From contig JBBDPN010000001.1 in assembly GCA_040876265.1 (NCBI GenBank), positions 53,691-117,690 of the forward strand: 64,000 bases of DNA, read 5' to 3'. Positions within the stretch are counted from its first letter, which is position 1, and every line of letters starts with the position of its first letter. A program made the position numbers and the translations under genes. This document shows positions 8,531 through 8,620 of this stretch, in pieces. Below the pieces are notes generated by a model. The model was not told where the DNA came from. It worked only from the letters and a program-made list of their open reading frames with translations, and did no database searches. The DNA comes from Candidatus Woykebacteria bacterium (GTDB taxonomy: Bacteria; Patescibacteriota; Microgenomatia; Woykebacterales; RBG-16-39-9b).

Positions 8531-8620
8531 TAGCCCACGAACTCCGATTTGATCGGATGAGGTGGTCGCAGCAGCCGAGGGTACTGAAAAACTTTAGTTT
8601 TGAAGTATTAAGGATGCTAT
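8531..8620 (+). repeat. Copy A of a ~90-nt conserved intergenic element with conserved hairpins and compensatory changes (structured RNA or MITE-like); ends in GATGCTATAAT immediately upstream of topA
   Basis: 'TAGCCCACGAACTCCGATTTGATCGGATGAGGTGGTCGCAGCAGCCGAGGG...AAGGATGCTAT'. Near-identical copies at 14350..14439 and 33462..33552, and reverse-complement copies at 44388..44518. Confidence 0.8.

What the first reader, a model, noticed from the sequence alone, without database searches (positions are those of the whole stretch)
8531..8620. Family of ~90-nt conserved intergenic elements with conserved hairpins and covarying outer stem (5 copies; candidate structured RNA or MITE-like element)
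Five related copies occur in 64 kb. There are three plus-strand copies (8531-8620, 14350-14439, 33462-33552) and two tandem minus-strand copies (44388-44518). All share TAGCCCACGAA-[CTCCGAT-loop-ATCGGAG]-GAAGTGGTCGCA-...CCGAG(A/G)G...-GCTAT. The inner hairpin keeps its 7-bp stem while the loop differs (TTG versus CAG). An outer pairing covaries as CACGC/GCGTG in copy B versus CAGCC/GG(A/C)TG(C) in the others. The GG(A/C)TG variants are not exact complements of CAGCC; only the minus-strand copy reads GGCTGCTA. The flanking CCAC...GTGG pairing is also kept. Compensatory change of this kind is what you expect from a selected RNA structure rather than a simple duplicated promoter. Each of the three plus-strand copies sits directly upstream of a DNA-metabolism gene: topA, dcd (thymidylate block) and dnaX. 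Each ends in GCTAT(A)AT, which doubles as a -10 box. The minus-strand copies are not in promoter orientation, which argues for mobility (REP/MITE-like) or a small RNA gene instead.
Basis: seen in the sequence. Interest (0 to 1): 0.85.

Follow-up and report, generated by a model that had tools for sequence, protein, structure and literature searches.

The report
Mobile double-hairpin element of Woykebacteria
The five repeats are real and belong to a large, undescribed family of 36-95 nt two-hairpin elements that have spread through Woykebacteria genomes, landing between genes, in tRNA-gene fragments and in frame inside essential genes; they are not a dedicated RNA switch for DNA-metabolism genes.

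Summary
A covariance model finds six copies in the window: the five reported, plus a 38-nt mini copy inside the mfd ORF. An exact 21-mer from the conserved 5' part hits at least 120 metagenome contigs.

Anatomy: pyrimidine-rich flank, TAG, hairpin 1 (CCCAC-GAA-GTGG), TCGC, then a long hairpin 2, ending CTAT. The basal 7-bp stem of hairpin 2 covaries freely. Its internal loops (GAGAGTAC / TACGGAG) are conserved and its tip is modular.

Covariation is strong: 156 double-change cells against 55 in shuffles. The basal stem has 23 G.T but 3 A.C pairs, so one strand is the folded one.

Evidence for mobility:
- empty sites in relatives;
- both orientations, equally frequent relative to neighbouring genes;
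- tandem units;
- insertions in T- and D-loops of tRNA gene fragments;
- in-frame insertions in TopA, UvrD, NUDIX and Mfd.

No terminal inverted repeats, no regular target duplication and no transposase were found. Rfam and the literature have nothing on it.

At topA the element sits in the -10 region and rebuilds TGCTATAAT. That is a local by-product: TATAAT occurs in 9 of 90 copies.

Best reading: a new MITE/REP/RPE-like element mobilised as folded single-stranded DNA. An RNA-level function is not excluded.

The parts
8531..8620 (+). Copy A, full element with a nested inner hairpin in the loop of hairpin 1. It lies between the terminator of the upstream gene and topA.
   Evidence: CM hit, E = 8e-14. 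Sequence. A terminator-like hairpin lies at 8479-8504.
8534..8565 (+). Hairpin 1 of copy A: CCCAC-GAA-[CTCCGAT-TTG-ATCGGAT]-GAG-GTGG. The bracketed inner hairpin is an optional nested module.
   Evidence: Fold. The orthologous L002 copy has plain CCAC-GAA-GTGG.
8615..8623 (+). TGCTATAAT, an extended -10-like box made from the element's last bases (TGCTAT) plus flank (AAT). The topA ATG is at 8632, so the mRNA would be leaderless.
   Evidence: Read from the sequence. The same junction occurs in L002, while the empty site in L001 reads ATAGTGT^ATACTTT. There is no -35 match.
14349..14439 (+). Copy B, full element. It lies directly after the T-run of a terminator-like hairpin and about 105 nt upstream of dcd.
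   Evidence: CM hit, E = 8.5e-15. Sequence. L001 and L002 lack it at this site.
14463..14491 (+). Promoter-like site for dcd (TTGTCA-17-TATTCT with TG). It lies outside and downstream of copy B.
   Evidence: The motif is conserved in L001 and L002, which have no element there.
30531..30568 (+). Mini copy (TAGCCCAC-AAA-GTGG-TCGCAG-AGCGC-GAA-GCGAT-CTAC) inside the mfd/TRCF ORF 29837-32038. It is in frame and translated as PLAHKVVAEREAIY.
   Evidence: CM hit, E = 2e-8. Regex hit. Pfam shows the CarD domain interrupted. Translation.
33462..33552 (+). Copy C, full element with inner hairpin (loop CAG). It ends 13 nt before the dnaX ATG at 33566.
   Evidence: CM hit, E = 1e-10. Sequence. DnaX confirmed by Pfam.
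44450..44520 (-). Copy D, first unit of a tandem pair. Hairpin 1 is CCAC-TTTA-GTGG, hairpin 2 is present, and the unit ends CTTAG, running into unit E.
   Evidence: CM hit 44456-44524, E = 1e-3. Alignment.
44388..44455 (-). Copy E, second unit of the tandem pair. Its outer stem is perfect (GCAGCC/GGCTGC). Its terminal CTA, read on the + strand, is the TAG stop codon of ORF 42733-44391.
   Evidence: CM hit, E = 9e-9. Sequence. ORF list.

Best explanation
This is a family of small, non-autonomous mobile DNA elements specific to a subclade of Candidatus Woykebacteria (CPR / Microgenomates).

A unit reads, on one strand: TAG; hairpin 1 (CCCAC-loop-GTGG); TCGC; hairpin 2; CTAT.
- Hairpin 2 starts with a 7-bp stem of free sequence (AG+N5 / N5'+CT).
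- It then carries conserved internal loops (GRGAGTAC / TACGNAG).
- It ends in an interchangeable tip.
- Mini copies of 36-37 nt keep only the base.

Shown here:
- The element is present or absent at orthologous sites.
- It occurs in both orientations without regard to host transcription.
- It forms tandem units.
- It has entered T- and D-loops of tRNA-gene fragments.
- It has entered coding sequences, where it survives only in frame.
- It lies 3' of a pyrimidine-rich tetranucleotide (A almost never at -1 or -2).
- It has no terminal inverted repeats and no regular target duplication.

Inferred: it is moved as folded single-stranded DNA by a trans-acting, structure-recognising enzyme. An HUH/Y1-type transposase, as for IS200/IS605-derived elements or REP/RAYT, is the most economical guess. 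Hairpin 1 plus TCGCAG would be the sequence-specific handle and hairpin 2 a structural requirement.

Host effects are by-products. Its ends carry TAG in both reading directions, and many neighbouring genes now stop there. Its CTAT end plus an A/T-rich flank sometimes rebuilds an extended -10 box, as at topA.
For: Family size and structure
These give 96 unique copies with defined ends.
- 83% of cells are paired against 66% in shuffles. There are 156 double-change cells against 55 (0 of 500 shuffles reach this). Slid controls give 37 or fewer.
- RNAalifold recovers the same helices.
- The basal stem has 49 distinct sequence combinations among 91 copies.
- Strand asymmetry in the basal stem: 23 G.T against 3 A.C, counting each distinct stem once.

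Mobility
- Empty sites at dcd (L001, L002) and at topA (L001, L006-L009), against occupied sites in the window, L002, L012 and L013.
- In-frame coding insertions: 20 aa in TopA of L007, flanked by a 12-bp direct repeat; 24 aa in UvrD of L199 and 23 aa in a NUDIX protein of L141; Mfd in the window.
- Orientation is random relative to genes.
- Flank statistics: -4 to -1 reads T,T,Y,B, with A at 1 of 90 and 4 of 90 at -1 and -2. There is no general target duplication.
- tRNA contexts: 15 of 96 copies lie within 100 nt of a tRNA gene, at T-loop position 57/58 or in the D-loop of gene fragments.
- Tandem units: window D/E, L143, L146, L093, L117.

Host range and novelty
- Present only in relatives with TopA at least about 65% identical. 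Absent from more distant CPR loci and from viral contigs.
- Not in Rfam and not in the literature.
Against: - No transposase was identified. A crude IS200-type TnpA motif scan of the Woykebacteria-like loci fetched here (roughly 1 Mb) found none. No copy has its two ends separated by a gene.
- Helices that covary while loops and junctions stay conserved is also the classic signature of a functional RNA.
- The G.T over A.C asymmetry is confined to the basal stem. The distal stems show about 7 against 9.
- Copies at the same spacer (dcd2-dcd3) in L002, L008, L009 and possibly L013 keep the loops but have different stems. This could mean in-place selection for a host function rather than selfish spread.
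- A few insertions carry 8-22 bp direct repeats plus extra sequence: L007, L094, L163, and metG in L132. A simple peel-and-paste model does not predict these.
- Orientation does not follow gene direction, which serves as a proxy for replication direction. Strict lagging-strand targeting of the IS608 kind would predict that it does.
Confidence: 0.6

Rival explanations
1. The element is primarily a functional structured RNA: a protein-binding or processing module, or a small ribozyme. It has been copied around the genome, and selection acts on the RNA fold of the sense strand.
For: - Helices covary while junction and loop nucleotides are near invariant: TAG, TCGC, GRGAGTAC, TACGNAG, CTAT.
- RNA-like motifs are present: a C(UUCG)G tetraloop, GAA triloops, tandem G.A pairs, and a three-way tip shared by L008 and L013.
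- G.U outnumbers A.C in the basal stem.
- Copies at the dcd2-dcd3 spacer of several species keep the loops while the stems differ.
Against: - Orientation is random relative to host transcription, so about half the copies would be transcribed as the weaker antisense fold.
- Copies A and B lie close behind terminator-like hairpins; B abuts the T-run directly, leaving no room for its own promoter.
- Left flanks of different copies are unrelated, so there is no shared promoter.
- Antisense copies are translated inside TopA, UvrD and NUDIX.
- Mini copies lacking the conserved internal loops have also spread: 21 of 96.
- There is no Rfam match even at E <= 10.
Confidence: 0.22
2. The element is a promoter/operator module. 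A dimeric regulator would bind the palindromes and co-regulate DNA-metabolism genes (topA, dcd, dnaX), with the terminal TGCTAT(AAT) as the -10 box.
For: - Three window copies face topA, dcd and dnaX.
- TGCTATAAT lies 8 nt before the topA ATG, and there are similar junctions before topA in L002 and L013, a glycosyltransferase in L119 and uvrD in L116.
- TATAAT occurs at 9 of 90 junctions against about 3 expected.
- DNA-repair and topology genes recur among the neighbours: UvrD, RecJ, Mfd, TopA.
Against: - Stem sequences are free to vary, which is incompatible with sequence-specific half-sites.
- Many relatives lack the element at topA and dcd.
- The conserved dcd promoter lies downstream of copy B.
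- Half the copies point away from, or into the ends of, genes.
- Copies lie inside ORFs and tRNA fragments.
- Neighbouring genes are functionally diverse: aaRS, glycosyltransferases, LemA, SufB, a kinase.
- The topA-centred loci bias the apparent enrichment.
Confidence: 0.05
3. The element is a structure-specific site for a recombinase, analogous to integron attC sites. It would be folded as single-stranded DNA and would join or exchange adjacent segments rather than transpose by itself.
For: - Structure is conserved without sequence conservation in the stem. The tip is variable, mismatches are conserved (G.A at stem position 4, C.T in the middle helix), and only one strand folds.
- Copies sit at junctions of duplicated gene fragments: tRNA 3' ends, tRNA 5' parts, and a metG 5' fragment.
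Against: - There are no cassette-like arrays and no regular spacing.
- No integrase was seen in the window or the loci.
- There are no R-box-like GTTRRRY ends.
- Single isolated copies inside ORFs are plain insertions.
Confidence: 0.08

Closest known systems
IS200/IS605-derived non-autonomous elements (PATEs) and REP/RAYT elements (HUH Y1 transposase substrates)
   Same: - No terminal inverted repeats and no regular target duplication.
- A hairpin close to each end.
- Insertion 3' of a short pyrimidine-rich target.
- One strand is the folded, selected one.
- A short conserved tag (TAG here, GTAG in REPs) lies immediately 5' of the first hairpin.
   Different: - The two hairpins are unlike each other.
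- The 3' hairpin has no conserved stem sequence.
- The tag is YTAG/GTAG (G at -1 in only 20 of 90 copies).
- The target is degenerate.
- Copies occur inside ORFs and tRNA fragments.
- Orientation does not follow gene direction.
- No tnpA, RAYT or tnpB partner was found.
Rickettsia palindromic elements (RPE)
   Same: Short palindromic mobile elements in a reduced genome. They insert in frame into essential protein genes and are translated as extra peptide segments; they also occur in intergenic regions.
   Different: - Unrelated sequence and host.
- This element is shorter (36-95 nt).
- Most copies are intergenic; only 4 of about 100 are coding.
- It has a defined two-hairpin architecture with modular tips.
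Classical bacterial MITEs (Correia/NEMIS, ERIC, IS630-type)
   Same: High-copy small interspersed repeats with secondary structure, found in either orientation. Their ends can create promoters and stop codons next to host genes.
   Different: There are no terminal inverted repeats and no fixed TA or other target duplication. Stems evolve by compensatory change rather than by simple decay.
Integron attC sites
   Same: Conserved fold with a free stem sequence, conserved mismatches, a tip of variable length, and strand-specific folding.
   Different: No cassette arrays, no R boxes and no integrase seen. The copies behave as plain insertions.
Hairpin-forming repeats of organelle genomes (yeast mitochondrial GC clusters, sponge RHEs, fungal double-hairpin elements)
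   Same: Tiny hairpin modules that invade intergenic DNA, RNA genes and ORFs, and that nest inside one another's loops.
   Different: Different hosts and sequences. The mechanism is unknown in both cases. The resemblance is drawn from my own knowledge and from titles seen; it was not tested.

Membership tests
Any Rfam RNA family | Match to a curated covariance model at or above its gathering score | tested here: not met
   0 matches over the whole window. Around copy B at E <= 10 the only hit is a chance snoRNA match at 14.9 bits.
Classical MITE (DDE-transposase derived) | Terminal inverted repeats | tested here: not met
   Only TAG...CTA is shared between the ends. The bases next to the 3' end are the free-sequence stem.
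Classical MITE (DDE-transposase derived) | Target-site duplication of fixed length | tested here: not met
   The longest common substring of the flanks is distributed about as in shuffled pairings. A few repeats of 8-22 bp exist, with variable length and offset.
IS200/IS605-type non-autonomous element (PATE) | No TIR, no TSD, subterminal hairpins at both ends | tested here: met
IS200/IS605-type non-autonomous element (PATE) | Insertion 3' of a specific tetra- or pentanucleotide | tested here: inconclusive
   The left flank is T,T,Y,B with A nearly excluded at -1 and -2. No single tetranucleotide dominates: TTTC 7, TTCG 6, CTTT 5 of 90.
IS200/IS605-type non-autonomous element (PATE) | A full-length IS with tnpA and/or tnpB sharing the same ends in the same genomes | tested here: inconclusive
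   No ends were found separated by a gene, and there is no IS200-type TnpA motif in the Woykebacteria-like loci fetched here. Whole genomes could not be scanned.
REP / RAYT | Conserved GTAG (or CGTC) tetranucleotide at the 5' foot of a 20-40 nt palindrome | tested here: inconclusive
   TAG is invariant, but the preceding base is T 42, C 27, G 20, A 1. A hairpin follows directly.
REP / RAYT | Strictly extragenic; often inverted doublets (BIME/REPIN); RAYT gene flanked by REPs | tested here: not met
   Copies lie in ORFs and tRNA fragments. Tandem units are direct, not inverted. The RAYT part was not testable.
Rickettsia palindromic element-like behaviour | In-frame insertion into protein-coding genes, translated as a peptide insert | tested here: met
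   TopA (L007), UvrD (L199), NUDIX (L141) and Mfd (window). This shows a shared behaviour, not homology.
Riboswitch / cis-regulatory leader RNA | Consistent sense orientation in the 5' UTR of a functionally coherent gene set | tested here: not met
   Orientation is random. Neighbouring genes are diverse. Orthologous genes have empty sites.
Sigma-70 promoter module | -35 and -10 hexamers at proper spacing, conserved in all copies | tested here: not met
   There is no -35/-10 pair at copy A. TATAAT occurs at only 9 of 90 junctions and TGnTAnnnT at 16 of 90.
Integron attC | R''/R' boxes (RYYYAAC / GTTRRRY), cassette arrays, and an intI gene nearby | tested here: not met
   The ends are TAG/CTAT, there are no arrays, and no integrase appears among the window ORFs scanned.
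tRNA intron (group I or bulge-helix-bulge) | Removal of the insert restores an intact tRNA gene | tested here: not met
   Excising the element with 15 boundary variants from all 96 copies never gave an ARAGORN tRNA spanning the junction. The hosts are gene fragments.

The most novel reading that the evidence does not exclude
The element is not merely selfish DNA. It would be a new class of structured nucleic acid with its own activity, for example:
- a small RNA or ribozyme-like module; or
- a hairpin that integrates into the loops of other hairpins (T-loops, D-loops, its own hairpin 1) by a mechanism not yet described in bacteria.

In this reading its conserved junction and internal loops (TAG / TCGC / GRGAGTAC / TACGNAG / CTAT) form the active or protein-binding core.
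Probability: 0.15. Interest if true: 0.85.

Novelty: new variant of a known kind. Interest (0 to 1): 0.55.

Why it matters
CPR bacteria are regarded as streamlined, with few mobile elements. Here a tiny structured element reaches about 6 copies per 64 kb, roughly 0.7% of the sequence.

It matters for several practical reasons:
- It rewrites promoters and stop codons.
- It adds peptide segments to TopA, UvrD, Mfd and a NUDIX protein.
- It marks tRNA-gene fragments.
- Annotation pipelines will miscall it as ORFs, or miss the insertions.

It offers a clean natural data set of deep compensatory evolution in a mobile hairpin, with at least 49 different stems on one scaffold.

Finding its mobilising enzyme could reveal how single-stranded-DNA transposition, or some other mechanism, works in an uncultured phylum. 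It is also a cautionary case: covariation plus position upstream of related genes does not by itself indicate a riboswitch.

Tried and rejected
Database and collection searches
- Rfam, at gathering thresholds over the window and at E <= 10 around copy B: nothing.
- tRNA/tmRNA scan of the window: none.
- The TopA-based scan of genome contigs returned mostly distant taxa. Only six loci were close relatives, and the window's own genome was not among them.
- Viral contigs: 0 hits with two patterns.
- Literature searches for the sequence, for CPR repeats and for Woykebacteria found nothing on the element. The Patescibacteria tRNA-intron paper concerns group I introns at position 35/36 and is unrelated.

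Searches for a mobilising gene
- Autonomous version with ends separated by a gene: none.
- IS200-type TnpA motif scan of six-frame translations: none, though the scan is crude.
- Pfam on 19 window ORFs: no transposase, integrase or reverse transcriptase.

Mechanistic ideas considered and dropped
- Terminator targeting, as for group IIC introns: rejected, 1 of 93 copies abuts a terminator-like hairpin.
- tRNA intron: rejected, because excision never restores a tRNA.
- TA target duplication of the IS630 type: not supported by the dcd and topA empty sites.
- Rejected on anatomy, without a formal test: hammerhead core, k-turn, sarcin-ricin motif, group II domain V, LexA or NrdR box, TIGR array, and SINE-like retroposition.

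Incomplete comparison
- An Mfd homologue (L164) was compared to define the coding insertion. The linker is too variable to fix the boundaries.
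Full report
**1. Observation**

The three plus-strand copies and the two tandem minus-strand copies are present at the stated coordinates. The exact 15-mer CCCACGAACTCCGAT occurs three times; with up to three mismatches there are five matches, and none of 100 shuffles reached five.

I built a covariance model from independent metagenomic copies (R1) and ran it over the whole window with filters off. It returns six significant matches:

| Coordinates | Strand | E-value |
|---|---|---|
| 14345-14439 | + | 8.5e-15 |
| 8527-8620 | + | 8e-14 |
| 33458-33552 | + | 1e-10 |
| 44388-44455 | - | 9e-9 |
| 30527-30568 | + | 2e-8 |
| 44456-44524 | - | 1e-3 |

The next hit has E = 0.14.

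The organism is a Candidatus Woykebacteria MAG (CPR, Microgenomates group). The window's TopA is identical to a protein named so by NCBI, on a 532-kb contig.

**2. Anatomy**

On the element strand a unit reads as follows:
- TAG.
- Hairpin 1: CCCAC-loop-GTGG.
- TCGC.
- Hairpin 2.
- CTAT.

Hairpin 2 has these parts:
- A basal 7-bp helix, AG+N5 pairing with N5'+CT.
- An internal loop, GRGA opposite GNA.
- A 4-bp helix, GUAC/(G/U)UAC.
- A second internal loop.
- An apical helix of variable sequence.

Several interchangeable tips exist:
- GAAAC/GTTTC.
- CTAAATT/AATTTAG with an extra mini-hairpin.
- CCCCGAT...ATCGGGG.
- A three-way tip, GGCTTCGGCACGAAGTGCGGA.GGCA, with UUCG and GAA loops.

Mini copies of 36-37 nt keep only TAG, hairpin 1, TCGCAG, N5, a triloop, N5' and CTA.

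In window copies A, B and C the GAA loop of hairpin 1 carries a nested 17-nt hairpin (CTCCGAT-NNN-ATCGGAG) flanked by GAA on both sides. The orthologous topA copy of L002 has plain CCAC-GAA-GTGG. L008 carries a different nested hairpin at the same place.

Copies D and E form a direct tandem pair in which the CTTAG end of D runs into E.

**3. Size and range of the family**

TopA homologues were used to fetch syntenic loci from relatives. Model R1 finds copies in these loci:
- L001
- L002 (four copies)
- L007
- L008
- L009
- L012 (a tandem pair upstream of topA, plus one more)
- L013

It finds none in L004, L006, L011, L014 or L088, and none in more distant CPR loci.

From these and the earlier loci I extracted 126 hits. 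They reduce to 96 unique copies with an identifiable 3' end:
- 21 mini copies.
- About 60 copies of 65-83 nt.
- A few longer copies or tandem pairs.

Only one of the six window copies contains that 21-mer, so the true family is several times larger. Viral contigs gave nothing.

**4. Is the structure real?**

Yes. I aligned 41 metagenomic copies plus the three full window copies (A3) and tested the helices of hairpin 2 that I specified:

| Measure | Observed | Control |
|---|---|---|
| Cells forming standard pairs | 83.2% | 65.7% in shuffles |
| Cells with changes on both sides | 156 | 54.9 in shuffles (0 of 500 reach it) |
| Same, with the 3' partner slid by 1-3 columns | | 23-37 |
| Covariation score | 0.484 | 0.136 or less when slid |

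RNAalifold independently predicts the same helices, with 13 of 16 pairs showing double changes.

Over 91 copies the five free positions of the basal helix use four to six Watson-Crick types each, in 49 distinct stem combinations.

Counting each distinct stem once, the basal helix has 23 G.T and 3 A.C pairs. The element strand is therefore the one whose fold is selected.

This asymmetry is not seen in the distal helices, which show about 7 against 9. I treat it as solid for the base only.

Recurrent non-canonical pairs behave like conserved features rather than decay:
- G.A or A.G at basal position 4, in 35 of 91 copies.
- C.U in the GUAC helix, in 33 of 44 copies.

**5. Evidence that it is mobile DNA**

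(a) Empty sites.
- At dcd, L001 and L002 go directly from the terminator T-run to (G)TGGGAAAATTTGGGGAGTTGTCA. The window has copy B between the T-run and TGGAGAAAATTT.
- At topA, L001 reads ATAGTGT^ATACTTTATTTCATC-ATG. L002 reads ATAGTGT[TAG...GTGCT]ATAATTTATCCCAAC-ATG.

(b) Coding insertions, all in frame.
- TopA of L007 has 20 extra residues (MPNRSLRALRPLRGLDKAQ) that are absent from the window's TopA. They are encoded by an antisense mini copy flanked by the 12-bp direct repeat CAAATGCCAAAT.
- UvrD in L199 carries a 24-residue antisense insert, and a NUDIX protein in L141 a 23-residue one. The L199 insert is absent from the UvrD homologue of L116.
- The window's Mfd/TRCF carries a sense mini copy (PLAHKVVAEREAIY) in an interrupted CarD domain.
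- All three antisense inserts use the same open frame (...SLR...ALRPLRGL).

(c) Orientation relative to the flanking genes is random: >> 22, << 25, <> 12, >< 8.

(d) Flanks.
- Positions -4 to -1 are T,T,Y,B. A occurs once at -1 and four times at -2 among 90 copies.
- After CT come A (82 of 91) and T (71 of 91).
- There are no terminal inverted repeats.
- The longest shared word between left and right flanks is distributed almost as in shuffled pairings.

(e) Exceptions with 8-22 bp direct repeats plus extra sequence exist:
- L007.
- L094.
- L163.
- metG in L132 and L188, where a 5' coding fragment (...FVTTPIY) precedes the element and the complete gene follows it.

(f) tRNA contexts.
- 15 of 96 copies, 11 of them mini, lie within 100 nt of a tRNA gene.
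- Six sit between positions 57 and 58 of a T-loop: GGTTCG^[element]^AATCC..., with CCA 17-20 nt later.
- Others sit in D-loops.
- The hosts are always fragments, next to intact tRNA genes. They are either a T-arm plus 3' acceptor strand, or a 5' acceptor strand plus D-arm.
- Removing the element never restores a tRNA.
- I read this as a target preference for TTCG-type loops, with selection removing hits in functional genes. This is an inference.

(g) Terminators are not a general target: 1 of 93 copies abuts one. The position of copies A and B behind terminators is therefore incidental.

**6. Relation to neighbouring genes**

The element carries TAG at its 5' end, and the complement of its 3' CTA is also TAG.
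- In 11 copies an opposite-strand gene ends exactly at that codon. In two copies UppP ends at the 5' TAG.
- In the window, ORF 42733-44391 stops in the end of copy E.

At the 3' junction the hexamer TAT+NNN is TATAAT in 9 of 90 copies. About 3 are expected from base composition, by my estimate. TGnTAnnnT occurs in 16 of 90.

In several cases this box lies 7-13 nt before an ATG with no Shine-Dalgarno sequence, which suggests leaderless mRNAs:
- topA in the window, L002 and L013.
- A glycosyltransferase in L119.
- uvrD in L116.

At topA the element appears to have entered the old -10 region and rebuilt it as a perfect extended -10. No -35 is present.

For dcd the conserved promoter-like TTGTCA-17-TATTCT lies downstream of copy B. 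It is shared with relatives that lack the element.

For dnaX the only promoter-like match ends one base before the ATG and is probably not functional.

Genes downstream of sense-oriented copies are diverse:
- TopA, UvrD, RecJ, DnaX, Dcd.
- CysRS, AspRS, MetRS.
- Two glycosyltransferases.
- LemA, SufB, a histidine kinase and others.

DNA-repair and topology genes look somewhat over-represented, also among the coding insertions. However, the topA-centred sampling biases this, and I leave it as unexplained.

**7. Mechanism**

Shown: mobility, the two-hairpin fold, selection on one strand at the base, a pyrimidine-rich 5' target, and no TIR or TSD.

Inferred: transposition through folded single-stranded DNA by a trans-acting, structure-specific enzyme. 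The HUH Y1 type (IS200/IS605 and REP/RAYT) is the closest known model. Hairpin 1 plus TCGCAG is identical over at least 120 contigs and would be the recognition handle.

Not shown: the enzyme. No autonomous copy was found. A crude TnpA motif scan and Pfam scans of 19 window ORFs found no candidate.

Several observations fit this model poorly:
- Orientation does not follow gene direction.
- There are occasional long direct repeats with extra sequence.
- The internal loops stay conserved across copies whose stems have completely diverged. This includes copies in the same dcd2-dcd3 spacer of L002, L008 and L009.

That last pattern is what a functional RNA would show. I therefore keep an RNA-level function as the main rival (0.22). 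The points against it:
- Orientation is random.
- B abuts a terminator T-run directly and A lies about 15 nt behind one (A; B's hairpin was read by eye, and the scan did not score it), leaving no evident room for a promoter of their own.
- Antisense copies are translated.
- Mini copies without the loops have spread.

**8. Comparison and novelty**

Nothing matches in Rfam. Full-text searches for the sequence, for CPR repeat elements and for Woykebacteria found no description.

The element behaves like known small bacterial mobile repeats but fails the defining tests of each family:
- No TIR or TSD, so it is not a classical MITE.
- No conserved GTAG, and it is not extragenic-only, so it is not a REP.
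- No R boxes or cassette arrays, so it is not attC.
- Excision does not restore tRNAs, so it is not an intron.

It shares with PATEs the combination of hairpin ends, no TIR and no TSD. It shares with RPEs the in-frame invasion of essential genes.

I classify it as a new variant of a known kind and give it moderate interest (0.55). It is the first such element I can find for CPR bacteria, it has unusually clean compensatory evolution, and its mechanism is open.

Noticed in passing
window 8542-8558, 14360-14376, 33473-33489; L008 about 17895-17915(-); L001 11477-11497; L002 16474-16490: A small GC-rich hairpin module (CYCCGAT-loop-ATCGGRG) recurs in different settings. It is nested in the GAA loop of hairpin 1, flanked by GAA on both sides like a 3-nt duplication. 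It forms the tip of hairpin 2 in many metagenomic copies. It also serves as the stem of the terminator upstream of dcd in relatives. It may be a second, even smaller mobile hairpin.
   Followed up: partly
window 44388-44391 and ORF 42733-44391; 11 metagenomic loci (e.g. L101, L102, L110, L136, L198): Opposite-strand genes end exactly at the TAG formed by the complement of the element's terminal CTA, often after a lysine-rich tail. UppP in L122 and L153 ends at the element's 5' TAG.
   Followed up: partly
L148, L149, L183, L204, L174, L115, L107 (T-arm + acceptor + CCA fragments); L185, L172, L190, L118, L163 (5' acceptor + D-arm fragments): tRNA-gene fragments lie 4-85 nt from intact tRNA genes, each carrying an element in its T- or D-loop. 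In L183 the fragment repeats the last 16 nt of the adjacent tRNA-Lys exactly. The origin of these fragments (att-site remnants, or duplication on insertion) is unexplained.
   Followed up: partly
L132, L188, L186 (upstream of metG): The 5' part of an element, with no identifiable 3' end, is preceded by a short duplicate of the metG 5' coding region (...FVTTPIY) and followed by the complete metG. This looks like an insertion rescued by, or accompanied by, partial gene duplication.
   Followed up: no
window 30370-30600 (mfd): The CarD/TRCF domain of Mfd carries about 60 extra residues rich in R, P and G, of which the mini element is only a part. The homologue in L164 also has a different expansion at this point, so the linker is a hotspot for insertions.
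   Followed up: partly
window 47350-52360: A block of paralogous genes has repeated 5' and 3' ends: repeat families D2, D4, D5, D14 and D15, with for example the same ATGCCTGAAGAAACCA... start at 49624 and 51225. Two of the ORFs have no Pfam match; one is PsbP-like.
   Followed up: no
window 12000-14000: G+C rises to 53%, against about 45% elsewhere. ORF 13200-13640 has a thrombospondin type 3 repeat. Overlapping ORFs on both strands suggest uncertain gene calls.
   Followed up: no
window 1-64000: There is no tRNA or tmRNA gene and no Rfam-recognisable RNA in 64 kb. Cumulative GC skew rises almost monotonically, consistent with one replication arm and most genes on the + strand.
   Followed up: no
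L012 (DASVHF010000059.1), L013 (OZ246414.1), L014, L088: Public MAG records titled 'Candidatus Nanoarchaeia archaeon' or 'uncultured Gammaproteobacteria bacterium' encode TopA 63-69% identical to the Woykebacteria protein. L012 and L013 also carry this element, so the record titles look wrong.
   Followed up: no
L001 11567-13189, L002 16681-18453, L008, L009 versus window 14545-15657: Relatives have three tandem dCTP-deaminase/dUTPase-like genes before thyA, while the window has two. The spacer before the third gene holds an antisense element in L002, L008 and L009. Its 5' junction, read on the gene strand, forms GCTATAAT or GCTATAAAAAT 11-17 nt before the ATG.
   Followed up: partly
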